Shown: piece by piece, positions 2,068-17,347 of the stretch | How positions within the stretch are numbered: the first letter of the stretch is position 1 | Layout: each line of letters begins with the position of its first letter | Assembly: GCF_002310835.1 (NCBI RefSeq) | Contig: NZ_CP011042.1 | Coordinates: 270,001 to 302,000, forward strand | Direction of reading: 5' to 3' | Length of the DNA: 32,000 nt | From: Pseudoalteromonas tetraodonis | Lineage (GTDB): Bacteria; Pseudomonadota; Gammaproteobacteria; Enterobacterales; Alteromonadaceae | Notes under the pieces: model-generated | Databases searched by the model: none | Told to the model about the DNA's origin: nothing | What the model saw: only the letters and a program-made list of their open reading frames with translations | Position numbers and translations under genes: made by a program

Positions 2068-3921
2068 ATGCAAAAAGCAACACAAGATAAAAACGTAATT
2101 CAAATTAGTACTCCTGTTGGTAAAGATGCCCTTTATTTAACACGCTTCGTTGCTCAAGAAGCCATGTCAGATTTGTTTGTTATGTCGGTCAATATGTATA
2201 CCATAGGCCAACAAATTGCACATGAAGATCTGGTTGGCAAGCCTGTTTCTATCAAGGTAAAAAATGCCGAGGGTGGGGGAGAGCGTTTTTATCACGGTAT
2301 CGTGAGTCAGCTTGTTTCTAACGGAAGCCGTACGGCGGATGTTGATGAGCAAAAAAATTACATTGATTATCAAGCTACCATTGTGCCTTTTGCCGCTTCT
2401 ATGCGTAATCGTAAAAACAGTCGCATTTTCCAAAAGAAAACAATTAAAGATATATTCGCTGATTTGTTTGGCCAACACAATGTGGCTTTTTCAGATAAAA
2501 CCAGTAAAACCTACCCCAAATACGAATACTGTGTGCAATACCAAGAGTCAGATTTTGACTTTATCCAACGCTTATTACAAAGTGAGGGGATTTTTTACTT
2601 CTTTGAGCATACAAAAAGTAATCATACATTAGTTTTAGCAGATGATATTACCGCATATGAAATGTGTGGTGAGGCTAAAGTTGTTCATTCAACTGGCCAT
2701 TTAAGTGAGTCTCATGTTTCGCGTTGGCAGGGCGGATTAAGCTTAGCGCCAGGTAGTTTCAAACGTTTGGGCTACGATTTTAAACAGCCATCACGTTACC
2801 CTGATGCAGAGCAAGCAAACGCAGAATTACCGACCCAATCGGTATCAGAAATTTTTGAATATACAGCTGAAGCAGAGTGTCATCCCCGCGCGGCTAATTT
2901 GGCATCAGTTCAACTAGAGTCACTGCAAAGAGACATGAAGCTCTCGAGCGGGCGCAGTGACTGCCGCTCATTCTCTGTTGGTAAACTGTTTAGTTTCAAA
3001 AAACATGAAGACCCACGCCTTGAAGGTAAAACCTTTGCTATCACCTCGATGATGACGTCGATTGTGGTACCAAACCAATCAGGCGCTGCACAAGCATCGA
3101 GTGAAGAAGTGTATTCTAACCACTTTGAATGTGTGCCAAAAGACATTCCATACAGAGCGCAAGTGAGCAAAAAGAAACCGGTTATCAACGGCGTACAAAC
3201 AGCCATAGTAACGGGTGATAGCGCCGATGAAATTATGATTGACCAATATGGCCGCGTTAAGGTGCAATTTGATTGGGATCGTGAAGGTAAAAAAGACTCT
3301 AAAAGTTCATGCTGGATCCGAGTTGCACAAAATTGGGCTGGCAAAAAGTGGGGCGCCTTTTTCTTTCCCCGCGTAGGTCAAGAAGTTCTGGTTGATTTTA
3401 TTAATGGCGACCCAGATCAACCTATTATAAGCGGTGCTGTTTATAATGCAGACCTAATGCCTCCGTACGCATTACCTGGTGAAAAAACGCAAAGTGGTAT
3501 TAAGACTCGCTCAACTAAAGAAGGTGGAGCAGATAACTTTAATGAGCTGCGCTTTGAGGATAAAAAAGGCAGCGAGCTTGTGTATATGCAAGCCGAAAAA
3601 GATAAACAGCTTTACGTTAAAAACGATCAAAACGAAAAAATAGATAACGACCGTAATGTTGAAATCCTCAATAACGATAATCTCAAAGTCACAGCTAACC
3701 GTGTTGCTGAAATGGGTGAAAATGACACCTTAAAAGTCGGTAAAACACTTAATATTGAAGCGGGTGACGAAATAGTGATAAAAACAGGCTCTGCGCAAAT
3801 TAAAATGAGCAGTAGTGGCAATATTACTATTGAAGGTACAAACATTGATATTAAAGGCAGTAATGTAAAAGTAGATGGCAGTGCCATTACCTTATCTGCT
3901 GGTGTAATTAAGTTAAATTAA
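2068..3921 (+). CDS. vgrG: VgrG (TssI) spike protein, no C-terminal effector extension
   Basis: 617 aa. It carries the hallmark gp5-OB motif PRVGQEVLVDFINGDPDQPIISGAVYNA, followed by a beta-helix-like repetitive tail (NVEILNNDNLKV...GSNVKVDGSAITL). An RBS (aagga) precedes the ATG. Confidence 0.92.
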   Translation: MQKATQDKNVIQISTPVGKDALYLTRFVAQEAMSDLFVMSVNMYTIGQQIAHEDLVGKPVSIKVKNAEGGGERFYHGIVSQLVSNGSRTADVDEQKNYIDYQATIVPFAASMRNRKNSRIFQKKTIKDIFADLFGQHNVAFSDKTSKTYPKYEYCVQYQESDFDFIQRLLQSEGIFYFFEHTKSNHTLVLADDITAYEMCGEAKVVHSTGHLSESHVSRWQGGLSLAPGSFKRLGYDFKQPSRYPDAEQANAELPTQSVSEIFEYTAEAECHPRAANLASVQLESLQRDMKLSSGRSDCRSFSVGKLFSFKKHEDPRLEGKTFAITSMMTSIVVPNQSGAAQASSEEVYSNHFECVPKDIPYRAQVSKKKPVINGVQTAIVTGDSADEIMIDQYGRVKVQFDWDREGKKDSKSSCWIRVAQNWAGKKWGAFFFPRVGQEVLVDFINGDPDQPIISGAVYNADLMPPYALPGEKTQSGIKTRSTKEGGADNFNELRFEDKKGSELVYMQAEKDKQLYVKNDQNEKIDNDRNVEILNNDNLKVTANRVAEMGENDTLKVGKTLNIEAGDEIVIKTGSAQIKMSSSGNITIEGTNIDIKGSNVKVDGSAITLSAGVIKLN

Positions 3922-4280
3922 TGATGGAAATAGTCAATAACTTTCAATCAGGATTTAGAAACGGCATTGCAAATAACGGGCACGTTGTTTACTGCCGTTA
4001 TGGTTTACCGCATTTAGTGTGTTTACCGATAAACAGGCCAGACGATCCATTACTAAGCCCGGCTTTAAGTCATTTAAAAGCCATGAATGGCTATTATGCA
4101 CAGCAGTTTTTTATTCATTTAAGTGATGCACTTAATAGTGAAAATGTAATTTCAAACTTATATCAATATGCAACTCAAAGCGCTGTGGCACTTTCTGATC
4201 ACAGTAAAGATGAGTTAATTGAAGAAATTTCGCTACTGGTAACCAGTAACAAGCTATTAGTTATCCCGCTTTATGAATAG
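3921..4280 (+). CDS. Hypothetical 119-aa protein translationally coupled to vgrG (candidate spike-associated adaptor)
   Basis: Its ATG overlaps the vgrG stop (TAATG at 3919-3923). I recognise no motif. It is not PAAR-like. Confidence 0.6.
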   Translation: MMEIVNNFQSGFRNGIANNGHVVYCRYGLPHLVCLPINRPDDPLLSPALSHLKAMNGYYAQQFFIHLSDALNSENVISNLYQYATQSAVALSDHSKDELIEEISLLVTSNKLLVIPLYE

Positions 4281-4318
4281 CATTTCATAAACCAACAAAG
4301 ACACGACAAGGAGTCAAA

Positions 4319-4609
4319 ATGGGTAAACCCGCTGCTACAATTGGTCATATGCATGTATGCCCTAAAGTGACCGCTAAAGTTCCACATGTGGGTGGACCTA
4401 TAGTTGCTGGCTCTGGCAATGTGTTAATAGGTGGCATGCCCGCTGCCCGCAAAGGCGATATGATAGTGTGTGTTGGCCCGCCAGACAGCGTAAAAACAGG
4501 CTCGGGTAGTGTTCAAATTAATGGTAAACCTGCCGCCAGAATGGGCGATGATAGTGGCCACGGCGGAAAAATCGTTGTGGGCAACCCAACCGTGTTAATT
4601 GGTGGTTAA
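4319..4609 (+). CDS. Stand-alone PAAR-domain spike-tip protein
   Basis: 96 aa with two literal PAAR motifs (GGMPAARKGD, NGKPAARMGD) and a Gly-rich beta pattern. A strong RBS (aaggag, 4308-4313) precedes it. Confidence 0.92.
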   Translation: MGKPAATIGHMHVCPKVTAKVPHVGGPIVAGSGNVLIGGMPAARKGDMIVCVGPPDSVKTGSGSVQINGKPAARMGDDSGHGGKIVVGNPTVLIGG

Positions 4610-4611
4610 CT

Positions 4612-5637
4612 TTGCTAGCGACCTATTTAAGTGATCATCAAGCACAATTACTACAAATTAGTAACGCTCAACTGTGCCCGTTTACGTGTGTAGGTCATGT
4701 TCGCTATTTAAGAAAAACGCTATTAGAAAGCTGTTGGTTAACGGCAAAAAACAATAATCAAAAAAATAACTTTGAATTGCCCACCACTGAGCAACTAGTC
4801 GAAATAATAACTAACACCAAAAACGATGAATTAGTTGCCCAAGCATGTATTGAAGTTATGGCTAACTTGCCACAAAATAAAAATATTATATTTATAAATG
4901 AATTACTTAATGAGCCAGCGCTGAGTGCTTTTTTTAAAATCATTATAAATAAAGTCGTTATCCAACAGCATAGCTTTAACTTAATTCGGCTACTAAATTT
5001 AAACACCTTGTTTTTTGCTTACAGTGCTGAGGAAGAGATTGCCCCGCAAACACTGGTCACTATAAATCAAATTACCAGCCTTGCGCAGCACCACGATAGA
5101 CAGATATTAACGGCTATTTTTGATGCATTAAGTGAGCAAGCCCATCTATCACCCTTAATGTCGTTATTTTTGTTGTCGTTAAATTTTGAGCAAGTAAACA
5201 GCTTAAGTAATCATGCCAGTAATACCTTATCGGTTGATCACACATTGCATATTTTATTACAAAGCGGTTTTGTAAAACTAATTGTTTTGGCTAATTCTTT
5301 ATTACAACAGGTAGAGCAACCCGCGTTAATTATTGCGCTAATAAGACGCATGTTAGGTGATAAACTCGATCAGCTAGTGGAGTACGATATCCAGCGACTC
5401 GCTTGGCAAGGTGATGAAAGCGCGCTAATAGATTTTCAGCAGCAGTTAAAACATAACTGGCCTAAATATGAAACCGCCATGTCGAGTTTACGACTGATTG
5501 CAGGGCACCCTCTTGATGAAGTGCCTAATGCCATTTATTTATCGGCCATGGATAGCTATAGCCAAGGGGTGTTTAATTTATATCGCTATTATCAACATCT
5601 CGCTGCCAATAAAACTCAGGACGAGGTGGCACCATGA
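4612..5637 (+). CDS. Hypothetical 341-aa Leu/Asn/Gln-rich (probably all-helical) protein; candidate effector chaperone/adaptor
   Basis: A TTG start lies 2 nt after the PAAR stop, with GGTGG 7 nt upstream. The next in-frame Met is about 80 codons downstream. I see no DUF4123-, EagR- or DUF2169-type motif. Confidence 0.6.
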   Translation: MLATYLSDHQAQLLQISNAQLCPFTCVGHVRYLRKTLLESCWLTAKNNNQKNNFELPTTEQLVEIITNTKNDELVAQACIEVMANLPQNKNIIFINELLNEPALSAFFKIIINKVVIQQHSFNLIRLLNLNTLFFAYSAEEEIAPQTLVTINQITSLAQHHDRQILTAIFDALSEQAHLSPLMSLFLLSLNFEQVNSLSNHASNTLSVDHTLHILLQSGFVKLIVLANSLLQQVEQPALIIALIRRMLGDKLDQLVEYDIQRLAWQGDESALIDFQQQLKHNWPKYETAMSSLRLIAGHPLDEVPNAIYLSAMDSYSQGVFNLYRYYQHLAANKTQDEVAP

Positions 5638-6479
5638 GTGCATTTTCAATCGAGATGACATGCTTTTCTGTCCCAAATATTAGCAGCGTAGACACATTAT
5701 TATTTGACGATAACAGTGCTGTTTTTAATGAGTTGCAATGGCAGTCTTGGGATGCATGTGTTTACGATTGCATAATTAAATCTAAAGAATTAATGGCAGA
5801 AGTCACAGACAGCACATTGCCGATGATTTGGTTACTACCGGCATTATCATTTCAAGATGAGCTAAAACAGTTATTAGCTCAAAGCTTACAACAGTTATAC
5901 CCCGATCATAGCAACGAGCTGATTTTTCATGGAACAACAGGTGCACACTCTGCTATAGCTTTGGCTGGTGAAAAAAAATGGCAAAAATTTAATGTAATTG
6001 CTTTAGATGCAACTTTTAAAGCAAATAAACAGCAACAGTTTGTATATCAAGGTGTAGGTGGTGCGTTGGCTGTAGTTGAAATGGTGCCTTGCGGGTGGTC
6101 GCAGGTAAGCCATGAGATTGCAGCATCTATTGATTTTAGCAAACATAATCAGCTAGCAGGTATGCTTACGCGATTAGCTGAACAAACAGAGAATAAGATT
6201 GATCTAATTTTTGCACCGGGAAATGGGGTAGATGATGATAGTTGGCTAAACAATTTACAGCTACTTACTAGCTTAATTGATGAGCACACATATTACGAAC
6301 TACCCAATTATAAATTAGGGAAAATAGGCGCACTAGAAGGGTTAGTTAATTTGTACCAATTAACCACAAGCCCTGCAATTGTTGAGCATTTTAGTTATGC
6401 ATTAATGCTCTCCCAAGAGCAAGCTAAGCATCAAGGTGCAGCATCATACTTATGGATAAGTGAGGAAGTAGACAGCTAA
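5634..6479 (+). CDS. Hypothetical 281-aa protein; candidate effector chaperone/adaptor
   Basis: An ATGA start/stop overlap joins it to the upstream gene, and a TAATG overlap joins it to rhs downstream. No signal peptide and no recognised motif. Confidence 0.6.
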   Translation: MSAFSIEMTCFSVPNISSVDTLLFDDNSAVFNELQWQSWDACVYDCIIKSKELMAEVTDSTLPMIWLLPALSFQDELKQLLAQSLQQLYPDHSNELIFHGTTGAHSAIALAGEKKWQKFNVIALDATFKANKQQQFVYQGVGGALAVVEMVPCGWSQVSHEIAASIDFSKHNQLAGMLTRLAEQTENKIDLIFAPGNGVDDDSWLNNLQLLTSLIDEHTYYELPNYKLGKIGALEGLVNLYQLTTSPAIVEHFSYALMLSQEQAKHQGAASYLWISEEVDS

Positions 6480-9400
6480 TGCAAAGTAATACCGTTGTTT
6501 TACAAGGAATAAGTTACCCAATTTGCCTCGTCGCTGGTAAAGGTTCTGCGCCGTCGGGCTTTGTTGCTGTAGCAGCTAACACGCCTGAAAGTGCCAAAAA
6601 TCAAATTGCGCAAATAGGCAGTGCGCTTACTAGCGACGCCGCTAAACGTTTAGACGTTATTAACTTGCTTAACCTTGCAGGAGTGAGCTGTTCGCGCGGT
6701 GCGTCAGCCCGTGAAACCGCGAGTGTATTAACCCAAGCTTTGGTTGCAGATAAAATTAGTTGTTATCACCAAAAAGCTAAGTCGGCTATTCAAGTAAGCG
6801 ATAACACTAATAGCGGCGCAGCAGGTAAAAAGCCAAGTAGTAAGAGCAGTTCAACAGCCTCAGGTAAAAGTGCCTCTCAAGCGCCGGCTAAAAACAGTGG
6901 CGGTGCAAGTAATAATACCCCAAGTGAAGAACCTATCACCAAACAAGAGTGCCGCTCTGATCCAGTTTCTATGCTCTCGGGTGAAGAAATACTGCCGCTT
7001 ATTGATTTCACCTTAGCAGGTAGCAAACAATTAATTTGGCGACGCCTATACCGTTCATCGCATGCGGATGTATGCAGTGTAATGGGTAATGGTTGGCGAC
7101 ATGACTTTATGGTGCAGTTAACTGAGCATTACTTACCGCCACCTAAAGTAGGCCCAAAACAAAAAGGCACCTACTGGTTAGAATACCAAGATGAGCATGG
7201 CGCTAAACACCGCTTTGAAAAAGTAAAACCGGGGCAATCGAGCTATCAGCTAAGCAGTAATTTGGCGTTGCATTACCAAACTAATGGTAAGCAAGTATTG
7301 GTAACGCCAGATGATCAGCATCTTACGTTTAAAGCTGGCGAAAACTCATGGTTGCTCGAAAAAGTTATTAATGAAAAAGGCCAAAGTATTGGTTTTTATT
7401 ACGATGCGAAAGAGCGCTTGCATCGCGTTGAGGTTAATAAAGCACGCGGCTGTATTTTAAAATATAACCCGCAAGGGTTGCTGGCAAACATTTCGGCTTA
7501 TCGTACAGGTGATAACAACAAGCCAGTATTACTAACGCCGTTACTTGCGCAATATGATTATGATGAAAACAAAAATCTCGTTCGCGCGACCAATCAACAA
7601 GGTGAAACAGAGCATTATGGCTATAACGCCGCTAATTTATTAACTAAGCGTACCCGTGCCAGTGGTTTTAGCCATCACTTTGAATGGGATAGTTACTCAT
7701 CAAGTGCTAAGTGTATAAAACAATGGGGCGATAACAACACCTATACGTATCAGTTTGAATATAATTTAGACGCTGGTGAAACAACCTGTATAGACTCGCG
7801 TGGGCATAAAGAACACTTTGTACATAACGCGCAAGGTAAGTTAGTTAAGCACACCGATCCTAATGGTAATGTTTGGCACTACCGCTATAACGCACAAGGC
7901 CAAAAAATAACGGAAATAAAGCCAGACAGCAGTGAAATAAAATACAGTTATACCCCTTACGGTCAGTTAGAATCAATAACGCAGCCAGATGGCAGTGTCA
8001 CTAAATTTGCTTACAACCAATTGGGTCAGCGTGTATTAACCACCTTGCCTGATGGTCAAACAATAACCCGTAAATACAGTGTGGCGGGTTTGCTGCAAAG
8101 TGAAACCTTTGGCGACGGTCGCACCGTACTTTACAGCTATGACAAATTTGGCCAGCTAACCCAACACATAAATAAAGATGGTCAAGTCACTAAATTTGTA
8201 TGGAACGAGCAAGGCGAGCTTTTAGCCAAACACCATAACGATGAGCTCATTCGCTACAGCTACGACAGTTTAGGCCGTGTAAATGCCACCATTAATAACG
8301 CAGGTTTGCTGACTCAATATAAATACAATGAGCACGGCCAGCTTGCGCAAACTATTGCCTTTGACGAAAAAGACCCTGAAAATAAACAGCATCAACATTT
8401 TAGTTACGATGATGCAGGGCGGTTAATTAGCTCGCAAAACAGTAAGGGTGATACCACCGAGCAACACTTTGAAGGGCTAAGCCAGCCACATTGTGTTATT
8501 CAGCCCGATGGCAGTGCATTGCATTTAACTTACGATAAAGAGCGCAACCTAACCGCTATCGAACGTAGCGACGGCCATGTATACCGCATAAGTTATGACG
8601 CTAACGAAAACCCAACGCAAGTAACTGGATTTGATGGCACGCTACAGCAATATAAATACGATGCTTGCAACCGCTTAACCTCGGTTACACAAAGCGATAA
8701 ACGCCATGTAAAAATAGAGCGTGATAAATTAGGCCGCGTGATTGCGCAGCATGCCAGTTTGGCAACCGATACTCACATCGTTAATAACGCCAATTACTAC
8801 AGCTATAACCTGCAAGGTAAAATTACTCGTGCGCACAATGCACAATCAACCTTAAAGCAGCAGTTTGATAAAGGCGGGCGATTAGTACGTGCTGAGCAAG
8901 TACATAATCAGCAACAAGCCCATACCTTAAAATACAGTTACGACGACTACGGCAGAAGGCAATCACTGACCTTGCCAGATTCAAGCAAACTGAATTACAG
9001 TTATAATAAATTTGGTCAATTGAGTGGCATTCACTTACAGCAAGCCAATAGCACGGCTGTTGAACTTGCAGCGCTTAGCTATGACAGTCAAGGTAATATT
9101 CAAACGCAAAAGTTTGGTAATGACATAACCCTTACCCAACAATTTGATGTATTTAACCGCCTAACACAACAGCAGTTAACCCATCCTGCGCAAGCACTAT
9201 TTGATACCTGTACGTACATCTACGACAGCGTAAACCAGCTGATTGCGCGTAAAGAGGAAGGTGTTAGTAGTCATAATATTAATTTTGAGTACAACAGCCT
9301 AGGCCAGTTAATTCAACAAAATCTAGTAAGTTCTGAGAACACAAAAACCACGCAATACCAGTGGGATAGCTTTGGTAACCCAGTTAGCCAGTCAACGGTT

Positions 9401-11176
9401 AAAAATGACGAATTAGCTGAGCAGCAAACTCCTCAGCACAATGATGATAGCGACGCCAGCAATAAGGTTGAAAGTAACCAGTCAGAAAGCACACCTAATG
9501 TAATTAATAGCGAATATAACGATTCAAATGCAGCAACGTTTGCTAGTGATTTAAGTGATAATGATGATGTTATTACAGGTACCACTGATGCCGACCGGTT
9601 AACTCACTTTGGCGACAGCGACTTTCATTATGATGAATTTGGTAACCAAATACGCGAAACCGGCAAAGGTATAAAAACCCGCCGCGAATACAATGCATTT
9701 AATCAGCTAAGTTGCTTTAACAACAACGGTACGCTTACTCAATACGATTACGACCCACTCGGGCGTCGTATCGCCAAACACACCGAGCAGGGCAAAATTG
9801 ACTACATTTGGGATAACGACCAGCTAATTGGCGAATACCAACAGGGTGAATATACCTGGTATATCAACCTGCCAAATCAATTTCACCCAGTCGCGCTGAT
9901 TAAAAAAGGTGAGGTGTACTACTACCACCTAGACCAACTGAATACTCCACGTTTTGTAACCAACAACAAAACAGAAGTAGTCTGGGAAAACCAAGCAGAT
10001 GTATATGGTTATGAAGAGTCAGAGGCAAACACTACAAATAGCTTCACTCAGCCAATACGTTTTCAAGGGCAATATTTAGATATCGAGAGTGGCTTACATT
10101 ACAACCGCTACCGCTACTACAGCCCCAAACAACAACGCTTTATAAACCAAGATCCGATTGGCCTTGTGGGTGGCATAAACCACTATCAATATGCGCCGAA
10201 TCCAGTTAATTGGGTGGACCCGTTTGGGTTGAGTTGTAAGGAAGGAGATGCTAAAAGGGTTGTTTTTGCTGGCCATGGGATTATAGATGAGACTAAATCT
10301 GCAATAGTCCCTGTGGGAAGTACTCTAACGGTATATGCATTTAATGGAGCGACAATAACAGATGACCTTGGGCAATTAATAGAAAGTGGCGGGTCCTTAA
10401 ATAGTAATGTATATAAAAAGGTATATGTTGCTGGTGATGTTATCCCCGGGTATGTGTTACTTGATAACCCTGGAGATATCGAGCTTCTCGATAGTTCAGT
10501 TCAAGTTTCTAAACCAACAGATATATCAGAACTTCTAGCCGAAAATGTAGGGGATTGCCATTGGGCTGCATGTGCTTCAATCTTTGGGCATGAAAACGAG
10601 AATGTGATTCACCATACTGAGGGCATTTTCAAAAAAGAATCAAATAAATTTTATCAGCTACAAGATGACGATAGTTGGAGTGAGTTGCTTGAAGATAATG
10701 CTAGTGAAGATACTCGAAGTATAACTAAGCCATATGGCATAGAACAGTCAGCTTTGGAAAAAGCTTTAATTAATGATATCAATCCTGACAAGGTAATTAA
10801 CGGTCGAAAAATAATTAACTCGGATCTAGCAGGTACTATTGTTAAAACTAAAGGCGGGGATGTTGCGTTCGATACCGATGGTTTCCCTGATTTTACTCCA
10901 TACTCACAAAAAACAGTCTCCGTAGAGGGCTTGACTGGGGATATGCTAAATGATGTACCCTTAGCAATGGAAAAAGCTGGTATTGAAGTATACGATAAAA
11001 CTAAATATGTTTGGCATCATCACCAAGATGCTAAAACAATGATGCTCATTCCTAAATCTGTGCACTCTGTTAGAAATGGAGGTGTTGCACATACTGGAGG
11101 CAGGGCAGTGATAAAACATAACAAAGATAATCCTAATAACGTATTGAATTATAAGTCTCCAAAAGAGCTTGTATAA
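6479..11176 (+). CDS. rhs: Rhs-family T6SS polymorphic toxin (1565 aa) without an N-terminal PAAR
   Basis: The Rhs plug region is CRSDPVSMLSGEEILPLIDFTL...WRRLYRS. Dozens of YD repeats follow (YSYDSLGRV, YKYNEHGQL, FSYDDAGRL, YKYDACNRL and others). The Rhs-associated core ends ...YNRYRYYSPKQQRFINQDPIGL...PNPVNWVDPFGL (DPFGL = nt 10217-10231). Confidence 0.95.
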   Translation: MQSNTVVLQGISYPICLVAGKGSAPSGFVAVAANTPESAKNQIAQIGSALTSDAAKRLDVINLLNLAGVSCSRGASARETASVLTQALVADKISCYHQKAKSAIQVSDNTNSGAAGKKPSSKSSSTASGKSASQAPAKNSGGASNNTPSEEPITKQECRSDPVSMLSGEEILPLIDFTLAGSKQLIWRRLYRSSHADVCSVMGNGWRHDFMVQLTEHYLPPPKVGPKQKGTYWLEYQDEHGAKHRFEKVKPGQSSYQLSSNLALHYQTNGKQVLVTPDDQHLTFKAGENSWLLEKVINEKGQSIGFYYDAKERLHRVEVNKARGCILKYNPQGLLANISAYRTGDNNKPVLLTPLLAQYDYDENKNLVRATNQQGETEHYGYNAANLLTKRTRASGFSHHFEWDSYSSSAKCIKQWGDNNTYTYQFEYNLDAGETTCIDSRGHKEHFVHNAQGKLVKHTDPNGNVWHYRYNAQGQKITEIKPDSSEIKYSYTPYGQLESITQPDGSVTKFAYNQLGQRVLTTLPDGQTITRKYSVAGLLQSETFGDGRTVLYSYDKFGQLTQHINKDGQVTKFVWNEQGELLAKHHNDELIRYSYDSLGRVNATINNAGLLTQYKYNEHGQLAQTIAFDEKDPENKQHQHFSYDDAGRLISSQNSKGDTTEQHFEGLSQPHCVIQPDGSALHLTYDKERNLTAIERSDGHVYRISYDANENPTQVTGFDGTLQQYKYDACNRLTSVTQSDKRHVKIERDKLGRVIAQHASLATDTHIVNNANYYSYNLQGKITRAHNAQSTLKQQFDKGGRLVRAEQVHNQQQAHTLKYSYDDYGRRQSLTLPDSSKLNYSYNKFGQLSGIHLQQANSTAVELAALSYDSQGNIQTQKFGNDITLTQQFDVFNRLTQQQLTHPAQALFDTCTYIYDSVNQLIARKEEGVSSHNINFEYNSLGQLIQQNLVSSENTKTTQYQWDSFGNPVSQSTVKNDELAEQQTPQHNDDSDASNKVESNQSESTPNVINSEYNDSNAATFASDLSDNDDVITGTTDADRLTHFGDSDFHYDEFGNQIRETGKGIKTRREYNAFNQLSCFNNNGTLTQYDYDPLGRRIAKHTEQGKIDYIWDNDQLIGEYQQGEYTWYINLPNQFHPVALIKKGEVYYYHLDQLNTPRFVTNNKTEVVWENQADVYGYEESEANTTNSFTQPIRFQGQYLDIESGLHYNRYRYYSPKQQRFINQDPIGLVGGINHYQYAPNPVNWVDPFGLSCKEGDAKRVVFAGHGIIDETKSAIVPVGSTLTVYAFNGATITDDLGQLIESGGSLNSNVYKKVYVAGDVIPGYVLLDNPGDIELLDSSVQVSKPTDISELLAENVGDCHWAACASIFGHENENVIHHTEGIFKKESNKFYQLQDDDSWSELLEDNASEDTRSITKPYGIEQSALEKALINDINPDKVINGRKIINSDLAGTIVKTKGGDVAFDTDGFPDFTPYSQKTVSVEGLTGDMLNDVPLAMEKAGIEVYDKTKYVWHHHQDAKTMMLIPKSVHSVRNGGVAHTGGRAVIKHNKDNPNNVLNYKSPKELV
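10232..11173 (+). other. Rhs C-terminal variable toxin region (~314 aa): unknown N-proximal module plus C-terminal WHH-type HNH/EndoVII nuclease
   Basis: It starts immediately after the DPxGL demarcation. The C-terminal part reads DGFPDFTPY...KYVWHHHQDAKTMMLIPKSVHSV..GVAHTGG, with WHH at nt 11012-11020. This fits the WHH clade of HNH-fold polymorphic toxins as I remember it. G+C and codon choice drop relative to the core. Confidence 0.65.
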
Positions 11177-11186
11177 GGTGTGATGT

Positions 11187-11564
11187 ATGACTGAAATTAA
11201 GAGCATTAAACATATAATTAAAAGAGTATGGCGAGAGCCAGAATGTACCTTACTGTTATCTTCACAAGTTGACACCACACTGTATAGTGAACTTAGTAAA
11301 GAAATCCCAGATAAATATTTAGTTATAGAAGAAGTTTTTTGTGATGAAGAGCTAGATGATATATGGGAAAGCTTTAAAGGATATTTAAGTGAATACGAGG
11401 TTTTTCCTTTTCTAGGTTTATTTGGTGGGGCCGTTATATGTGTAGGTTATGGAGAGAATAACATTGGCAAAATATTTTATTTTGACTTCGACTTTGGTTG
11501 TTTGCAGTTTGACCGTGATGATTTGAATCAATTTATTAGTAAATTGAAGTGTGTTGATGCTTAG
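11187..11564 (+). CDS. Probable cognate immunity protein, SUKH (SMI1/KNR4)-like
   Basis: 125 aa, starting 11 nt after the rhs stop with an RBS (aaggtg). The pattern LYSELSKEIPDKYL ... FPFLGLFGGAVICVGYGENNIGKIFYFDFDFG resembles the SUKH layout. It is very AT-rich. Confidence 0.6.
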   Translation: MTEIKSIKHIIKRVWREPECTLLLSSQVDTTLYSELSKEIPDKYLVIEEVFCDEELDDIWESFKGYLSEYEVFPFLGLFGGAVICVGYGENNIGKIFYFDFDFGCLQFDRDDLNQFISKLKCVDA

Positions 11565-11640
11565 TTTTGTGAAAATTAGCTTGGTAACAAACAGAGAAAT
11601 ATATTTAAATTTTTAATTGTTCTCATTTAAGGTACTGCTG

Positions 11641-11994
11641 ATGATATCTTATAAAAGAAATGATGTACGTATTGATTTAACACTAATGACAGAAAATTTC
11701 CAATCATTAAAGGATAGGGACGTGTTTCTTGATTGGTTTTTATTAGCATTAAGGCAAGCCCAGATAATAAATAAATTACGAAGTGTTGAGGTTTGTCCCA
11801 GATGCAAGACGTATATAACATTTGGTACTAATGGTAAAAAGATTTCCAGTTATGAATATAGGATTCCAAATGGTGAGTTTAATATTGTAATTAATTCGTC
11901 TATTTTACATCTTGTTTCAGTACATAATCTTGTACCTGATACTACAATTGTTTCTGCCTTAGAAAATTTATATTGCAAAGCACCTGAATATTAG
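11641..11994 (+). CDS. Hypothetical small protein (CxxC-containing); possible second or orphan immunity protein
   Basis: I prefer the ATG at 11641 over the TTG at 11617. The product contains CPRCKT. Its position in the post-rhs array suggests immunity; there is no recognisable family. Confidence 0.45.
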   Translation: MISYKRNDVRIDLTLMTENFQSLKDRDVFLDWFLLALRQAQIINKLRSVEVCPRCKTYITFGTNGKKISSYEYRIPNGEFNIVINSSILHLVSVHNLVPDTTIVSALENLYCKAPEY

Positions 11995-12004
11995 TTTGTT
12001 CATT

Positions 12005-12307
12005 ATGGCATGTATAAATATCAAAAATTTAACACTTCAAGACGTCGCTTCATTTACGCTAAAAAATAACCCCAGCAAGCAATTTAAAGAAAAATGGGGT
12101 GACGAGTATTTTAGCCGCGCAATGTCATTATGGCGTGGAGTAAAGGAATGTTATTCAAAAAGTAAAGAATGTAACTTCACTACACAAGAGCTTTTATTTG
12201 CAATGAACTATGAATATGCAGTTGCTCCTTACAGCTCTGAGAATAATAACGCTATTGAATTTTATAGATGGTGTTTTGAAAATTTAAATAAAATCAAGGA
12301 TAGATAA
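12005..12307 (+). CDS. Hypothetical small protein, translationally coupled to the downstream ChaN-like gene
   Basis: Start is the ATG at 12005 (or the TTG at 11996). Its stop overlaps the next start (TAATG at 12305-12309). No recognised motif. Confidence 0.45.
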   Translation: MACINIKNLTLQDVASFTLKNNPSKQFKEKWGDEYFSRAMSLWRGVKECYSKSKECNFTTQELLFAMNYEYAVAPYSSENNNAIEFYRWCFENLNKIKDR

Positions 12308-13080
12308 TGAATAAAATAAACACGGATGTAAATTACAGAACAATGGCCGGTAATGCGCGTTTAGTTATGTTAGGCGAATCGAGCCATAGTGCTGCTGGCT
12401 ATAAATATGAGGCTATAAAAGCGATTAGGCAGTTAAAGGCTGCGGGTTTTACACATTTTGCTATAGAAATGCTGCCTAGCTCGATGCAGGAAAAAATTGA
12501 ACTGTATCAACGAACAGGTAAAGGCTTTAACATAATACAGCAATATTTTGATAAATATTGGACACATGGTGATTTTACTCCTCAAGCCTATGGTGAGCTG
12601 GTAAAGGCGGCACGCAATGCAGGAATGAAGATAGTTGCATTGGATGTTTCTGTAGAAACGATGGAAGTAATGGATAGTGTATGCCCATCGACAAAAGCCG
12701 TGACTGGAGAGTGTTTTGACGCGCATACGTTTAGAAACGATCTTTGGGCTTATAATTTAGCTACAATCCTCAAGAGAGCTAAGCAGAATAAAATTGTTGC
12801 TTTTATGAGTCGATGGCACGCAGTTAAGAATTTAAAGTATCAAATAGGTATTGATTCTTTAATTAAAGAGCACGGTATTCAAAATGTTCGTTTTATTGAT
12901 TTTATTGGTGGCTTATCTTGTTACAGCGACAGGCCGTGTAAGGGCATGTCTAGCCAACAAGAGACTTTGAAAGGACAATACTTCTACAAAGAGGGTTTTC
13001 CGTATGAAAGTACGGTTAAATCATTTCAAGTCCACCTACCAGAAAAGCGTATTAATAATGATGGGTCATTCCAATGGTAA
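12307..13080 (+). CDS. EreA/ChaN/Tiki-superfamily protein (ChaN-like), cytoplasmic form without signal peptide
   Basis: The superfamily motifs occur in the expected order: LVMLGESSH, GFTHFAIEM, YGELVKAARNAGMKIVALD, FRNDLWAYNL, KIVAFMSRWHA. The N-terminus is not hydrophobic. Confidence 0.65.
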   Translation: MNKINTDVNYRTMAGNARLVMLGESSHSAAGYKYEAIKAIRQLKAAGFTHFAIEMLPSSMQEKIELYQRTGKGFNIIQQYFDKYWTHGDFTPQAYGELVKAARNAGMKIVALDVSVETMEVMDSVCPSTKAVTGECFDAHTFRNDLWAYNLATILKRAKQNKIVAFMSRWHAVKNLKYQIGIDSLIKEHGIQNVRFIDFIGGLSCYSDRPCKGMSSQQETLKGQYFYKEGFPYESTVKSFQVHLPEKRINNDGSFQW

Positions 13081-13661
13081 AAGCACCAGTGACACTTGTG
13101 TTAGCAATTGGTTTTTTTATTTTTACGGATGCTAAAGCATCTATGTTTGCGAATATTGATATTAATGATCCGAACTTAACCGTTGAAATTGCAGCTAAGC
13201 AATGCGAAAAAAGCTATATGCACGCACCTAACAAATTAGAAGAATGGTGTGAAAAAGCTTACGAAATGGGTCACTTGGAGTCCTTGTATTATATTGGTAT
13301 GTATACTGGGAATGGGTCCCGTTATTTAAATGAATTAAATATTCGAATTGAACAAGGTGAAGCTAATGCTATTAATACATTAGCTTGGTTATACCAAAGC
13401 GGCCGTTTAGTTAAAAAAGATTTAAGTAAAGCTGCACGCTTATACCAGCTTTATTTAGCACAAGAAAATAACCAAGCAATTACACTTAAAACTTCTACAC
13501 ATTTTGAGTTAGCTACAATTTATAGAAAGCTGGGTATGTGGGATAAAGTAATAACTCATACTCAATATGTAATTGATAAGGCAAAAAGAGAAGGTCGTAG
13601 GGAACTTGCACAGAGATGGCGAGATGAGGCTGAAACATATTTGAAAGAAAGTAATTTGTGA
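13074..13661 (+). CDS. Secreted Sel1-like repeat (SLR/TPR) protein, paralog 1
   Basis: Signal peptide MVKAPVTLVLAIGFFIFTDAKA. Sel1 signature INTLAWLYQSGRLVKKDLSKAARLYQ. Its start overlaps the upstream stop (ATGGTAA). Confidence 0.75.
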   Translation: MVKAPVTLVLAIGFFIFTDAKASMFANIDINDPNLTVEIAAKQCEKSYMHAPNKLEEWCEKAYEMGHLESLYYIGMYTGNGSRYLNELNIRIEQGEANAINTLAWLYQSGRLVKKDLSKAARLYQLYLAQENNQAITLKTSTHFELATIYRKLGMWDKVITHTQYVIDKAKREGRRELAQRWRDEAETYLKESNL

Positions 13662-14275
13662 GTTTTTCACGCGTATATAGCTTTTCACTTGGCAGTCATG
13701 TGACAAAGTATTTATTAATTAGTGCACTGTTTACTTTTAGCTTAATTAGTAATGCCGCTGGCCCTCGATGGGATAATTCAATAGATATAAATGCTCCAGA
13801 TTTGACTGTATTAGCTGCCGCAGAGCAGTGCCATAAAAGTTTAATTAACGCGCCTGAGTATCTTGAAGAGTGGTGTGAAAAAGCTTATGGAATGGGATAC
13901 TGGAAGGCACTGGTTACACTAAGCCTCCATAATGGAGATGGAACTCGATTATTAGAGGAGGCCAAAAAGCGGGTTGCGGCAAAAGAGCCAAAAGCTTATT
14001 CAACTTTAGCTTGGTTATATGGCAGTGGTATGTTTGTGGAGCAAGATATTAATTATGCTATTGCCCTTTACAAAGAATTTTTAGCATTAGATGCAGAATT
14101 ACCAAATTCGTTAGTTGCGGCTGCGCACTTTAAGTTAGCAAACTTATATGAATCGCAGCAGGATTGGCTTGCAGTAAATGAGCATGCACAATATGTTATT
14201 GACCACAGTCCTTTAGCTTATGATAAAGAACGAGCTGTTGATTTGATAAAGTTAGCTAAAAAAATTTTTGATTAA
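13658..14275 (+). CDS. Secreted Sel1-like repeat protein, paralog 2
   Basis: The GTG at 13658 overlaps the upstream TGA. An alternative in-frame GTG at 13700 would give MTKYLLISALFTFSLISNAAG. Sel1 signature YSTLAWLYGSGMFVEQDINYAIALYK. It shares the block LEEWCEKAY.MG with paralog 1. Confidence 0.75.
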   Translation: MSFSRVYSFSLGSHVTKYLLISALFTFSLISNAAGPRWDNSIDINAPDLTVLAAAEQCHKSLINAPEYLEEWCEKAYGMGYWKALVTLSLHNGDGTRLLEEAKKRVAAKEPKAYSTLAWLYGSGMFVEQDINYAIALYKEFLALDAELPNSLVAAAHFKLANLYESQQDWLAVNEHAQYVIDHSPLAYDKERAVDLIKLAKKIFD

Positions 14276-15628: not shown

Positions 15629-16150
15629 TTGTATATTTTGTTATCGCGTTTTAAAGCTTACTTTTTGGTAGTTGTATCTATTACTATTATTTTTACTACA
15701 ACACAGGCTTGTGCAGATATGTTTGGTTTTTTTAATAAGCAGGATTTTGTTTTATCGGCTCCGATGAAGGGGCAGTTGTTAGATAAAGGGCAGCCTGTTG
15801 CAAATACTAAGGTTGTACGTGCGCTTACTTATGGTGATGAATATAAAGATGAAGCAATAACCGATGAAAATGGTTTTTTTACCTTCACAGAAAAATCTAT
15901 AAAAACGAGTAAGCCTGCAAACATGTTTGATAATGAATCACTGGTTCAGCATGTTTATTTAGAAAATGGTACGCCTGAGGGCGTTGTACTTTGGTACACA
16001 ACCGTGTCTATGCACGAAGGGAGTGATACCCTAAAAAACTTACTCGCTAACTTAGAGTGTGATATTGCCGAAGAGCCACAAACATACGACATACCTATAG
16101 AAGAAGCACCAGAGCATTTCTTTACGATATATGGTGCATGTAAAATGTAA
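15629..16150 (+). CDS. Small exported protein or lipoprotein (candidate lipase immunity protein)
   Basis: The hydrophobic N-terminus ends in a lipobox-like TTQAC. The motif TDENGFFTF suggests a transthyretin/carboxypeptidase-regulatory-like beta domain. It ends 30 nt upstream of the lipase gene. The start codon is uncertain (TTG at 15629 or 15638). Confidence 0.55.
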   Translation: MYILLSRFKAYFLVVVSITIIFTTTQACADMFGFFNKQDFVLSAPMKGQLLDKGQPVANTKVVRALTYGDEYKDEAITDENGFFTFTEKSIKTSKPANMFDNESLVQHVYLENGTPEGVVLWYTTVSMHEGSDTLKNLLANLECDIAEEPQTYDIPIEEAPEHFFTIYGACKM

Positions 16151-16180
16151 CTTTTAACATAATCATTTAAAGGGAATTTT

Positions 16181-17347
16181 ATGAATACTTTAACTCCTAC
16201 ACAAGCTGTACAAGTTGCTTTGCTTGCTTATAAAGCAAAGAGTATTAAAAGTACCACGTTACTTAATAATTCTTTGCATCCTTCTCTGCGAGGTAGCTTT
16301 AACTTTGGGGTTAGCCCTGAAGCAGTACAAGGAATATCTGGTGGTTTTTTCTCTCATTTATTTGGTTTAAGCACTGGTTTTGGTTTGCTAGGACATGGCC
16401 AAGGGCTGTATCAAGGTGATTCAGTAATCACTATTCGCGGCACGGCCTCTCTTAGAGATGGCCTAACAGATGCACACTTTGGGTTAAGCGGTGGCTCTAA
16501 TGGCAGTATGGTACATGCTGGGTTTAATAAAACCTTTTATAGCATGAAGCCCGCTTTACAAGAGTTTGTAGCGGCTAACATTCGAGACAAAATAACCGGC
16601 TGTGTGCACATTGTTGGTCACAGTTTAGGTGGTGCATTGGCTACGCTTTCAGCCGATTGGATAAAAGCAGAGTATTCGTTACCCGTTAAATTATATACAT
16701 TTGGCTCGCCAAGAGTAGGGCTTGATAACTTTTCGCGCGCTGCTACTTCTCGTATTGATAAAATATACCGCTGTACACACGGTGCTGATCCGGTTACAAA
16801 AGTGCCTTTGTGGCCATTTTCACATGCGCCCTACAATGGCCAAGAAATTCGTCTTGATAACGGTCAAGGTCTTAAAGGCGCAGCCCACAAGTTAAGTGGT
16901 ACGCCAGGCTATGTTAATACCGCAAACAGTAATGACTGGGGCAATTTAACTGTAAAAGCAAACCACTTCTTAAGCACACCGGTACGTTTAAAGTTTGAAG
17001 ACAGAAACCAAGCTTCATTTAGTTCACACTGGGCAGATAAACTGGGCGCTGCGTTAGTTACCTTATTAAAAGATTCGGGTTACTACAGTGCTGTTGCGGC
17101 ACAAGCAGCCATAGGTACAGGCTTAACTTTTTACGATATGCTCGCGCGAACGCTTGATAAAATAGCCAAAGCGTCAGCCTCATTTGCAACGCAAACCTTA
17201 GGTTTACTCGGCCACATGCTAGTGTTTGCTGGCAAAGTTATTAGTAAAGCCGTAGAGCTGACTTACAGTTTTATTAAATCAGTATTTGATTCAACTCTAG
17301 GGGCATTATATCGTGCTGCACGAGAAGGCTTAAATGGTCTAGATTAA
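16181..17347 (+). CDS. Class-3 (Lipase_3) lipase without signal peptide; candidate T6SS Tle-like phospholipase effector
   Basis: The Lipase_3 blocks occur in order: ITIRGTASLRDGLTD, MVHAGFNKTF, HIVGHSLGGALATLSA (GxSxG), LYTFGSPRVGL, THGADPVTKVP. The N-terminus is hydrophilic. About 100 aa of Ala/Leu-rich helical tail follow. Confidence 0.8.
   Translation: MNTLTPTQAVQVALLAYKAKSIKSTTLLNNSLHPSLRGSFNFGVSPEAVQGISGGFFSHLFGLSTGFGLLGHGQGLYQGDSVITIRGTASLRDGLTDAHFGLSGGSNGSMVHAGFNKTFYSMKPALQEFVAANIRDKITGCVHIVGHSLGGALATLSADWIKAEYSLPVKLYTFGSPRVGLDNFSRAATSRIDKIYRCTHGADPVTKVPLWPFSHAPYNGQEIRLDNGQGLKGAAHKLSGTPGYVNTANSNDWGNLTVKANHFLSTPVRLKFEDRNQASFSSHWADKLGAALVTLLKDSGYYSAVAAQAAIGTGLTFYDMLARTLDKIAKASASFATQTLGLLGHMLVFAGKVISKAVELTYSFIKSVFDSTLGALYRAAREGLNGLD

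What the first reader, a model, noticed from the sequence alone, without database searches (positions are those of the whole stretch)
10232..11173. Composite Rhs C-terminal toxin: unrecognised ~200-aa module fused to a WHH-type HNH nuclease, on a compositionally foreign segment
Seen in sequence: the ~314 aa after the DPFGL demarcation (10217-10231) split into two parts. The first is an N-proximal region, VVFAGHGIIDE...TLTVYAFNG...VYVAGDVIPGYVLLD...GDCHWAACAS, that I cannot assign. The second is a C-terminal region, DGFPDFTPY...YVWHHHQDAKTMMLIPKSVHSV..GVAHTGG, typical of the WHH clade of HNH/EndoVII toxins. Hand counts of sampled 60-nt stretches give about 48% G+C in the core (8521-8580). The toxin gives about 32% and 30% (10621-10680 and 10741-10800), and the immunity gene about 23% (11281-11340). 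Arg/Gly codons switch to aga/agg/gga. Established knowledge: Rhs C-terminal ends are displaced by horizontal transfer together with their immunity genes. Inference: the first module could be a second toxic activity, an intracellular trafficking or activation domain, or a His...Cys hydrolase. The last idea rests on a hydrophobic strand followed by GHG, then a hydrophobic strand followed by AAC, which is the same residue order as clan CD peptidases; the roughly 95-aa spacing is long for that clan, so this is weak.
Basis: partly seen in the sequence, partly recalled or inferred. Interest (0 to 1): 0.68.

Follow-up and report, generated by a model that had tools for sequence, protein, structure and literature searches.

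The report
Two-toxin Rhs tip with nested immunity genes
The end of this bacterial Rhs weapon protein carries two toxin modules in a row, a little-understood "Stv" module and a well-known DNA-cutting enzyme. It is followed by two matching antidote genes, an arrangement that recurs in related marine bacteria with different DNA-cutting enzymes swapped in.

Summary
The composite tip is real, but the first module is not "unrecognised". CT residues 1-153 (10232-10690) are a complete Stv domain (Pfam PF21527, E 5.6e-13). In about 140 of 150 relatives this domain is the last domain of the protein. His15, Glu51 and Cys114 are 98-99% conserved.

An acidic 24-aa linker follows. CT 178-314 is a WHH nuclease with extensive identity to the solved V. 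parahaemolyticus RhsP toxin (8BD1_A, E 2.5e-64). ORF 11187-11564 is its RhsPI-type immunity protein (8BD1_B, E 9e-40).

ORF 11641-11994 belongs, distantly, to DUF7919. That family lies immediately downstream of Stv-ending toxins in 25 of 29 loci, so the gene order is toxinA-toxinB-immB-immA.

At least four Pseudoalteromonas/Marinomonas variants keep Stv and the DUF7919-like gene while swapping the tail and its immunity gene. Two tails are WHH and LHH nucleases; two are unassigned.

Within the composite, Stv is under strong purifying selection (dN/dS 0.04-0.07). A confident model (pLDDT 92) has no match among solved structures, so clan CD membership is not supported.

The GC "break" is overstated. 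The cassette boundaries (10246-12017) are set by loss of homology, not by composition.

Verdict: a new variant of a known kind, of moderate interest.

The parts
6479..11176 (+). rhs gene (1565 aa): DUF6531, RHS repeats, RHS core and a composite C-terminal tip. It lies in a T6SS cluster (ClpV 14-1294, Hcp 1488-1994, VgrG 2068-3921, PAAR 4319-4609).
10217..10231 (+). DPFGL demarcation, the predicted autoproteolysis site. DNA homology with other Pseudoalteromonas rhs genes ends at 10245.
10246..12017 (+). Variable cassette (composite tip plus two immunity genes) bounded by loss of homology with Pseudoalteromonas sp. Bsw20308. GC is 34.5% against 39.2 +/- 2.6% for windows of the same size.
10232..10690 (+). 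Toxin module A: a complete Stv-family domain (CT 1-153; the Pfam match covers CT 10-115, i.e. 10259-10576). The AlphaFold2 model is folded over residues 9-152.
10274..10276 (+). His15 codon (GHG motif), conserved in 134 of 135 family representatives.
10382..10384 (+). Glu51 codon, conserved in 132 of 135.
10571..10573 (+). Cys114 codon (WAAC motif), conserved in 134 of 135.
10691..10762 (+). Acidic linker (CT 154-177, EDNASEDTRSITKPYGIEQSALEK). The model has low confidence from CT ~152 through this stretch to its end at CT 163. Between strains the linker shows 7 non-synonymous and 1 synonymous change. Composite relatives share only its first ~12 residues, up to a conserved Arg.
10763..11173 (+). 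Toxin module B: WHH-clade HNH/EndoVII nuclease (CT 178-314; WHHH at CT 261; the His of GVAHTGG at CT 287). It shares extensive identity with the V. parahaemolyticus RhsP toxin.
11187..11564 (+). Immunity B: RhsPI / SMI1-KNR4-type protein (125 aa, pI 4.35), a homologue of 8BD1 chain B.
11641..11994 (+). Candidate immunity A: a 117-aa DUF7919-like protein (pI 8.5). The likely start is the ATG at 11641, with AAGG 8 nt upstream. The ORF listing starts this ORF at the TTG at 11617.
11996..12307 (+). 3' remnant of a PoNe-immunity (PoNi) gene left from an earlier cassette. Homology with the Bsw20308 locus resumes at 12018.

Best explanation
This is a two-toxin Rhs effector of a type VI secretion system.

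Inferred from Rhs biology: the protein cuts itself after DPFGL. The 34-kDa tip is carried inside the Rhs shell and delivered into a neighbouring cell.

Shown by homology: the tip has two independent folded modules joined by a floppy acidic linker.
- Module A is a complete Stv-family toxin domain.
- Module B is an RhsP-type WHH DNase.

Inferred function: module A is most likely a thiol-dependent hydrolase that uses His15, Glu51 and Cys114 on a cytoplasmic target.

The producer is protected by two genes in nested order. The RhsPI-type protein (11187-11564) neutralises the DNase. The DUF7919-like protein (11641-11994) is inferred to neutralise Stv.

Inferred history: a toxin-immunity cassette was inserted between an Stv toxin and its own immunity gene. 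In this Pseudoalteromonas/Marinomonas lineage the Stv module plus a short linker now acts as a second, inner recombination platform. Tail toxins and their immunity genes are swapped on it.
For: Module A is a complete toxin-type domain:
- Stv is at the extreme C-terminus in about 140 of 150 representatives and in 29 of 30 genomic loci. These include many Rhs proteins where it is the only tip domain.
- The window module aligns end to end with those tips, which stop at about CT 152.
- The model has pLDDT 92.4, is folded over residues 9-152 and is disordered afterwards.

A candidate immunity partner for Stv:
- A DUF7919 ORF follows Stv toxins immediately in 25 of 29 loci, in both Proteobacteria and Actinobacteria.
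- The window ORF matches a profile built without it at E 1.4e-6. It was the only hit in the window's six frames.
- It is 54% identical to the second downstream ORF of the Marinomonas composite.

The cassette is bounded and recurs:
- The cassette boundaries 10246-12017 enclose exactly the tip plus both small genes.
- The same three-gene cassette occurs in P. aliena and in metagenome contigs at 90-99% identity.

Selection within the composite:
- dN/dS is 0.04-0.07 for Stv, 0.14-0.22 for WHH, 0.09-0.19 for immB and about 0.33 for immA.
- The linker has 7 non-synonymous and 1 synonymous change.

Other composites keep the same layout:
- Pseudoalteromonas sp. S3178 has Stv (91% identical) + LHH, then a SUKH gene, then a DUF7919-like gene. 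Pseudoalteromonas sp. CNC9-20 and Marinomonas carry other tails.
- Elsewhere Stv precedes Ntox28, TNT and Endonuclease_NS tails.

Module B and its immunity match a solved toxin-immunity complex.

Charges are complementary: Stv pI 4.5 with immA 8.5, and WHH 8.2 with immB 4.35.
Against: - No toxicity, enzymatic activity or binding has been shown for any Stv domain or any DUF7919 protein. The immunity role rests on gene order alone.
- The window ORF scores only 17 bits against Pfam DUF7919, below the cutoff of 27.
- Three Stv loci (L011-L013) have a different downstream family.
- The catalytic triad is inferred from conservation. I could not inspect model coordinates to check that His15, Glu51 and Cys114 lie together.
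- In this clade two of the four tails are HNH-type nucleases and two are unassigned. A functional dependence between the modules, rather than two independent toxins, is therefore possible.
Confidence: 0.62

Rival explanations
1. Stv here is a cis-acting releasing peptidase. Its Cys-His site cuts the linker in the target cell to free the nuclease, as internal caspase-like and papain-like domains are proposed to do in polymorphic toxins. It may also be toxic in its own right.
For: - Zhang et al. 2012 (PMC3482391) propose that thiol peptidase domains act as processing peptidases when internal and as toxins when terminal.
- Stv sits directly upstream of different terminal toxins in several lineages.
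- His and Cys are conserved.
- The composite relatives share a short extension ending in a conserved Arg just before the variable tail.
Against: - Stv is terminal in more than 90% of proteins.
- A partner gene is kept in every composite locus. A pure processing domain would not need one.
- The linker evolves freely (7N:1S).
- The fold matches no known peptidase.
- The Rhs aspartyl autoprotease already frees the tip.
Confidence: 0.17
2. Stv in this clade is a non-toxic delivery or loading module. It could be an entry domain like the N-terminal half of CdiA-CT toxins, or a spike-binding region like the VIR segment that precedes the nuclease in RhsP.
For: - The layout is a constant N-proximal module with variable nucleases and immunity genes.
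- In RhsP the about 113 residues before the same nuclease form a VgrG2-interacting region (citing Tang et al. 2022).
Against: - There is no sequence similarity to the RhsP segment.
- The catalytic-looking residues are kept under dN/dS 0.04-0.07.
- The domain stands alone as the only tip of many Rhs and WXG100-type toxins.
- The DUF7919-like gene is retained, also as orphan copies in immunity arrays.
Confidence: 0.1
3. Stv is an inert relic. A nuclease cassette recombined downstream of an older toxin, and the old module and its immunity gene are decaying passengers.
For: - The locus does carry a relic of a previous cassette, the PoNi fragment at 11996-12307.
Against: - Stv is the most conserved part of the cassette: 17 synonymous against 3-5 non-synonymous changes.
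- All near-invariant residues are intact.
- immA is full length in every copy.
Confidence: 0.03

Closest known systems
Vibrio parahaemolyticus RhsP (VP1517) with RhsPI (VP1518); PDB 8H8A/8H8B/8H8C and 8BD1
   Same: - It is a T6SS Rhs effector.
- Its C-terminal WHH nuclease shares extensive identity with CT 178-314 (E 2.5e-64).
- The immunity protein is homologous to ORF 11187-11564 (E 9e-40).
- The His of GVAHTGG, which is Ala in the 8H8A chain, is present here.
   Different: - In RhsP the about 113 residues between the cleavage site and the nuclease are a VgrG2-interacting region with no similarity to Stv.
- No second immunity gene is described for RhsP.
- Here a separate PAAR gene is present.
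Stv domain, Pfam PF21527 (De Silva et al., bioRxiv 10.1101/2022.08.23.504947)
   Same: - CT 10-115 scores 50 bits against a cutoff of 24.2.
- The conserved His and Cys are present.
- Occurrence at Rhs tips was already reported and read as a toxin.
   Different: - The authors saw the domain only at the C-terminus. Here, and in at least seven other proteins, it is internal and followed by another toxin.
- The link to DUF7919 is not in any searchable paper.
- In this clade the domain extends about 35 aa beyond the Pfam model.
"Double-blade" WHIX T6SS effectors (Fridman et al. 2025, PMC12135965)
   Same: One secreted polypeptide carries two toxic domains, and each needs its own immunity protein.
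   Different: - The WHIX blades flank a central secretion domain and mostly target the periplasm.
- Their immunity genes lie on either side of the effector gene.
- Here both modules are in tandem inside one Rhs-encapsulated tip. The immunity genes are nested downstream, and no WHIX domain was detected.
Caspase-like (clan CD) domains of polymorphic toxins and the MARTX/TcdB cysteine protease domain (Peptidase C80)
   Same: - His comes before Cys, each after a hydrophobic strand.
- The domains occur either internally or at the tip of polymorphic toxins.
   Different: - No sequence match (0 of 84 members).
- No structural match.
- The predicted fold is mostly beta, with two short helices.
- The His-Cys spacing is 99 aa.

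Membership tests
Rhs/YD-repeat T6SS effector | RHS repeats and an RHS-associated core | tested here: met
   PF05593 at E 6.7e-70 (10 stretches); PF03527 and DUF6531 also hit.
Rhs/YD-repeat T6SS effector | DPxGL demarcation before a variable tip, with homology to sister genes ending there | tested here: met
   DPFGL lies at 10217-10231. DNA homology ends at 10245.
Rhs/YD-repeat T6SS effector | Genetic linkage to T6SS spike genes | tested here: met
   ClpV, Hcp, VgrG and PAAR lie upstream on the same strand.
Rhs/YD-repeat T6SS effector | Autoproteolytic release and T6SS-dependent secretion | not testable with these tools
   Needs protein biochemistry and secretion assays.
Stv domain (PF21527) | Score above Pfam's gathering cutoff | tested here: met
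   50.1 bits against 24.2, E 5.6e-13.
Stv domain (PF21527) | Conserved His and Cys | tested here: met
   His15 and Cys114 are each present in 134 of 135 representatives, and Glu51 in 132 of 135. All three are present in the window.
WHH clade of HNH/EndoVII nucleases | Pfam WHH match and WHH motif | tested here: met
   PF14414, 51 bits against 25.1. WHHH is at CT 261.
WHH clade of HNH/EndoVII nucleases | Similarity to an experimentally characterised member | tested here: met
   8BD1_A at E 2.5e-64 over CT 182-314. The nuclease role of RhsP is as summarised in PMC12826047.
WHH clade of HNH/EndoVII nucleases | DNase activity | not testable with these tools
   Needs an enzyme assay.
RhsPI / SMI1-KNR4 immunity | Homology to the immunity chain of the solved toxin-immunity complex, encoded directly downstream | tested here: met
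   8BD1_B at E 9.4e-40. Copies 96% identical carry PF26352 RhsPI. The gene starts 10 nt after the rhs stop.
DUF7919 (PF25535), proposed here as the Stv immunity family | Score above Pfam's gathering cutoff | tested here: not met
   17.1 bits against 27. The 53%-identical L040 gene has a weak hit, and a 58%-identical relative (P0183) carries PF25535.
DUF7919 (PF25535), proposed here as the Stv immunity family | Significant match to an independent family profile and shared motifs | tested here: met
   E 1.4e-6 against a profile of six members that excluded the window, and the only window hit in six frames. Shared N-x-x-R, CxxC and H..V..H...P motifs.
DUF7919 (PF25535), proposed here as the Stv immunity family | Binds and neutralises Stv | not testable with these tools
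   Rests on gene order in 25 of 29 loci.
Clan CD cysteine peptidases (caspase, C80 CPD, gingipain, legumain) | His then Cys, each following a hydrophobic beta-strand | tested here: met
   VVFAGHG lies within predicted strand E9-25. Strand E107-113 ends in WAA, just before Cys114.
Clan CD cysteine peptidases (caspase, C80 CPD, gingipain, legumain) | Caspase-haemoglobinase alpha/beta/alpha fold | tested here: not met
   Foldseek of a pLDDT-92 model against PDB gave a best E of 1.5 with TM below 0.25 and no peptidase. The model is mostly beta with two short helices.
Clan CD cysteine peptidases (caspase, C80 CPD, gingipain, legumain) | Sequence match to a clan CD family | tested here: not met
   0 of 84 members hit any peptidase family at E<=1. 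A family profile searched against PDB sequences found nothing.

The most novel reading that the evidence does not exclude
Stv is a toxin enzyme with a fold not yet seen in solved structures. It uses a His-Glu-Cys centre for a chemistry not yet described among interbacterial toxins, and DUF7919 is its dedicated immunity family. In Pseudoalteromonas and Marinomonas the Stv module plus its short acidic extension has become a second-tier recombination joint, analogous to DPxGL or VENN. One Rhs protein is then polymorphic at two nested levels and fires two toxins at once. The inner toxin-immunity pair brackets the swappable outer pair.
Probability: 0.3. Interest if true: 0.7.

Novelty: new variant of a known kind. 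Interest (0 to 1): 0.5.

Why it matters
- It gives the widespread but uncharacterised Stv domain a testable role and a candidate immunity partner (DUF7919). The Stv domain has also been flagged in expanding Shigella lineages.
- It shows that an Rhs shell can carry two complete toxins in one 34-kDa tip. This is within the 38-kDa upper size reported for Rhs tips.
- It suggests how polymorphic toxins grow: a new toxin-immunity cassette is inserted between an existing toxin and its immunity gene, leaving a nested gene order.
- Two toxins delivered in one shot would make resistance through a single orphan immunity gene ineffective.

Tried and rejected
- Word-indexed homologue searches with the Stv region were almost blind. 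They returned 1 hit and 10 hits. The full HMMER scan was needed.
- NCBIfam gave nothing for the tip or the small ORFs.
- Foldseek of the Stv model against PDB and of the immA model against PDB found nothing. Against BFVD there were only weak hits to uncharacterised giant-virus proteins.
- A family profile against PDB sequences found nothing.
- I considered a link to Zhang et al.'s Tox-HDC or Tox-Caspase. No member hits those or any peptidase family.
- The Marinomonas tail could not be assigned.
- One dN/dS line (the L033 "core") is out of register and was discarded.
- Promoter hits were at chance level, and no terminators were found across 10900-12500.
- The retracted 2018 RhsP paper was not used as evidence.
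- I could not read model coordinates, so the His15-Cys114 distance is untested.
Full report
**What is in the sequence**

The ORF at 6479-11176 encodes a 1565-aa Rhs protein with DUF6531, ten RHS-repeat matches and the RHS core. It lies downstream of ClpV, Hcp, VgrG and a 96-aa PAAR gene on the same strand. DPFGL is at 10217-10231, and 314 codons follow it. The region is 78-88% identical in DNA to chromosome II ("plasmid" pPBSW1) of Pseudoalteromonas sp. Bsw20308, so the organism is probably a Pseudoalteromonas.

**The C-terminal half of the tip is a known toxin with its known immunity protein**

- CT 178-314 matches Pfam WHH (E 1.1e-13) and Colicin-DNase.
- It matches the solved toxin domain of V. 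parahaemolyticus RhsP (8BD1_A at E 2.5e-64; 8H8A/B/C). The alignment shows extensive identity and includes the WHHH motif.
- The His of GVAHTGG is present here. In the 8H8A chain that position is Ala.
- The next ORF (11187-11564) matches 8BD1 chain B, an SMI1/KNR4-family protein, at E 9.4e-40.
- Copies of that ORF 96% identical carry the Pfam RhsPI family.
- A 2025 review summarises RhsP as a WHH nuclease masked by RhsPI.

**The N-proximal half is not unrecognised**

- CT 10-115 matches Pfam PF21527 (Stv) at 50 bits against a cutoff of 24.2.
- A full HMMER scan of 1.84 billion representatives found 349 relatives.
- In about 140 of the best 150, the domain ends within a few residues of the protein's C-terminus. 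The same holds in 29 of 30 genomic loci.
- Several of these are Rhs proteins where Stv is the only tip domain.
- The closest stand-alone tips align with the window from the first residue after DPxGL to about CT 152, and stop there.
- AlphaFold2 with 84 sequences gives pLDDT 92.4 and pTM 0.85. Residues 9-152 are folded and confidence collapses afterwards.
- Module A is therefore a complete toxin-type domain of about 153 aa. The next 24 residues are an acidic linker, and RhsP homology begins at CT 178.
- Across 135 representatives, Gly14-His15-Gly16, Glu51, Gly68, Gly107 and Ala112-x-Cys114 are 98-100% conserved.
- My searches agree with that. Foldseek against PDB gave a best E of 1.5, and a family profile against PDB sequences found nothing.
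- No clan CD or other peptidase Pfam family is hit by any of 84 members.
- The model is mostly beta with two short helices, which is unlike the caspase fold.

**The second immunity gene**

- In 25 of the 29 loci with downstream sequence, the ORF that starts within about 20 nt of the Stv stop codon belongs to Pfam DUF7919. This holds from Gammaproteobacteria to Actinobacteria.
- The window's second small ORF is best read as 11641-11994. It is 117 aa, with AAGG 8 nt upstream of the ATG.
- It scores only 17 bits against the Pfam model.
- It does hit a profile built from six family members that excluded it, at E 1.4e-6. It was the only hit among all six-frame ORFs of the window.
- It shares the family motifs.
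- Its model is confident (pLDDT 89.5) but has no PDB match.
- No searchable paper mentions DUF7919.

**The cassette and its relatives**

- Against the Bsw20308 locus, homology is lost from 10246 to 12017. That stretch is the tip plus both small genes.
- The ORF at 11996-12307 is the 3' remnant of a PoNe-immunity gene from a previous occupant.
- The same three-gene cassette occurs in P. aliena GCA_947495475.1 and in four metagenome contigs, at 90-99% protein identity.
- Between the window and those copies, dN/dS is as follows:

| Segment | dN/dS or changes |
|---|---|
| Stv | 0.04-0.07 (17 synonymous, 3-5 non-synonymous) |
| WHH | 0.14-0.22 |
| immB | 0.09-0.19 |
| immA | about 0.33 |
| linker | 7 non-synonymous, 1 synonymous |

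Stv is therefore the most constrained part of the cassette.

**A recurring architecture**

| Source | Tip | Genes that follow |
|---|---|---|
| Pseudoalteromonas sp. S3178 | Stv (91% identical) + LHH nuclease | SUKH gene, then a 118-aa DUF7919-like gene |
| Pseudoalteromonas sp. CNC9-20 (orphan Rhs tip) | Stv + unassigned ~140-aa tail | two small genes, then an immA-like gene |
| Marinomonas spartinae | Stv (64-68% identical) + another unassigned tail | a 223-aa gene, then a 117-aa gene 54% identical to immA |

- DNA homology between the window and Marinomonas covers only the core end plus Stv, and immA.
- The composites share Stv plus about 12 acidic residues ending in a conserved Arg, then diverge.
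- Elsewhere Stv precedes Ntox28, TNT and Endonuclease_NS tails. The published statement that Stv is only ever C-terminal needs amending.

**Composition**

- Mean GC is 43.1% in the core, 38.2% in the tip and 39.0% in the window. There is no step at 10230.
- GC3 falls from 0.40 to 0.26. Most other genes in the window have GC3 of 0.24-0.36, so the core is the outlier.
- The codon shift is significant against the core (p=0.004 and 0.006) and marginal against the background (p=0.06 and 0.09).
- The whole cassette is at 34.5% GC. This is within the lowest 5.5% of same-size windows, driven by the immunity genes.

**Interpretation**

The best reading is a two-toxin tip with nested immunity genes (A-B-immB-immA). 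It would have arisen by insertion of a toxin-immunity cassette between an Stv toxin and its DUF7919 partner. The tail is now swappable behind a constant Stv.

- Shown here: the domain identities, the completeness of Stv, the gene order and its recurrence, and purifying selection.
- Inferred: that Stv is toxic, that it is a thiol hydrolase, and that the DUF7919-like protein neutralises it.
- Complementary charge supports the pairing only weakly (Stv pI 4.5 with immA 8.5; WHH 8.2 with immB 4.35).

Three rivals remain:
- A cis-releasing peptidase, following the positional logic of Zhang et al. 2012.
- A delivery module like the VIR segment of RhsP.
- An inert relic.

The retained partner gene, the terminal position of Stv elsewhere and the selection data argue against all three. 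The relic idea fares worst.

**Comparison and novelty**

- Two-toxin T6SS effectors that need two immunity proteins are known for WHIX "double-blade" effectors.
- Multi-toxin polymorphic toxins were noted in 2012.
- Both domains here are catalogued.
- New here are three things: the tandem arrangement inside one Rhs tip with nested immunity order, the constant-Stv and variable-tail sub-polymorphism, and the Stv-DUF7919 pairing.
- This is a new variant of a known kind, of moderate interest. The main open question is what Stv does.

Noticed in passing
window 11996-12307: This 103-aa ORF is the 3' remnant of a PoNe-immunity (PoNi) gene. DNA homology with the second PoNi gene of Pseudoalteromonas sp. 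Bsw20308 resumes at 12018. It is a relic of an earlier toxin cassette at this locus.
   Followed up: partly
window 12307-14275: A ChaN/Tiki-superfamily ORF (257 aa) is followed by two overlapping Sel1/TPR-like paralogues (42% identical). At least the first has a hydrophobic N-terminus. The set is conserved just after the variable cassette in several Pseudoalteromonas loci (L001, L033, L037, L040) and is duplicated in L001. It may be a separate effector-immunity module.
   Followed up: no
window 15629-17347: A DUF6795 ORF is followed by a class-3 lipase. The pair is conserved in L001 and looks like a T6SS lipase effector with a partner gene.
   Followed up: no
window 9381-9579: An Asn/Ser/Asp-rich low-complexity stretch inside the Rhs core has no DNA match in the otherwise collinear Bsw20308 and P. 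aliena genes. It appears to be a strain-variable insert in the shell.
   Followed up: no
window 3921-6479: A 119-aa ORF, and two ORFs of 341 and 281 aa between PAAR and rhs, have no Pfam hit. They are conserved in the same order in Bsw20308 and may be adaptors or chaperones for the Rhs effector.
   Followed up: no
L037 3072-7357 (P. aliena) and L041 5001-7488 (Pseudoalteromonas sp. CNC9-20): These are orphan Rhs tips and immunity arrays. L037 has an Ntox15 orphan tip with a Tdi1-type immunity gene and a second immA paralogue (55% identical) without a toxin. L041 has an orphan Stv + tail tip followed by the same 140/139/118-aa gene trio.
   Followed up: partly
Stv model m0c386900e3b2 (window 10232-10720): The only structural neighbours are weak matches to uncharacterised proteins of giant viruses (Indivirus, Klosneuvirus, Catovirus). 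The best is E 4.6e-3 with TM 0.41.
   Followed up: no
window 10961-11278, minus strand: A 105-aa antisense ORF overlaps the end of rhs and the start of the immunity gene. It is probably spurious.
   Followed up: no
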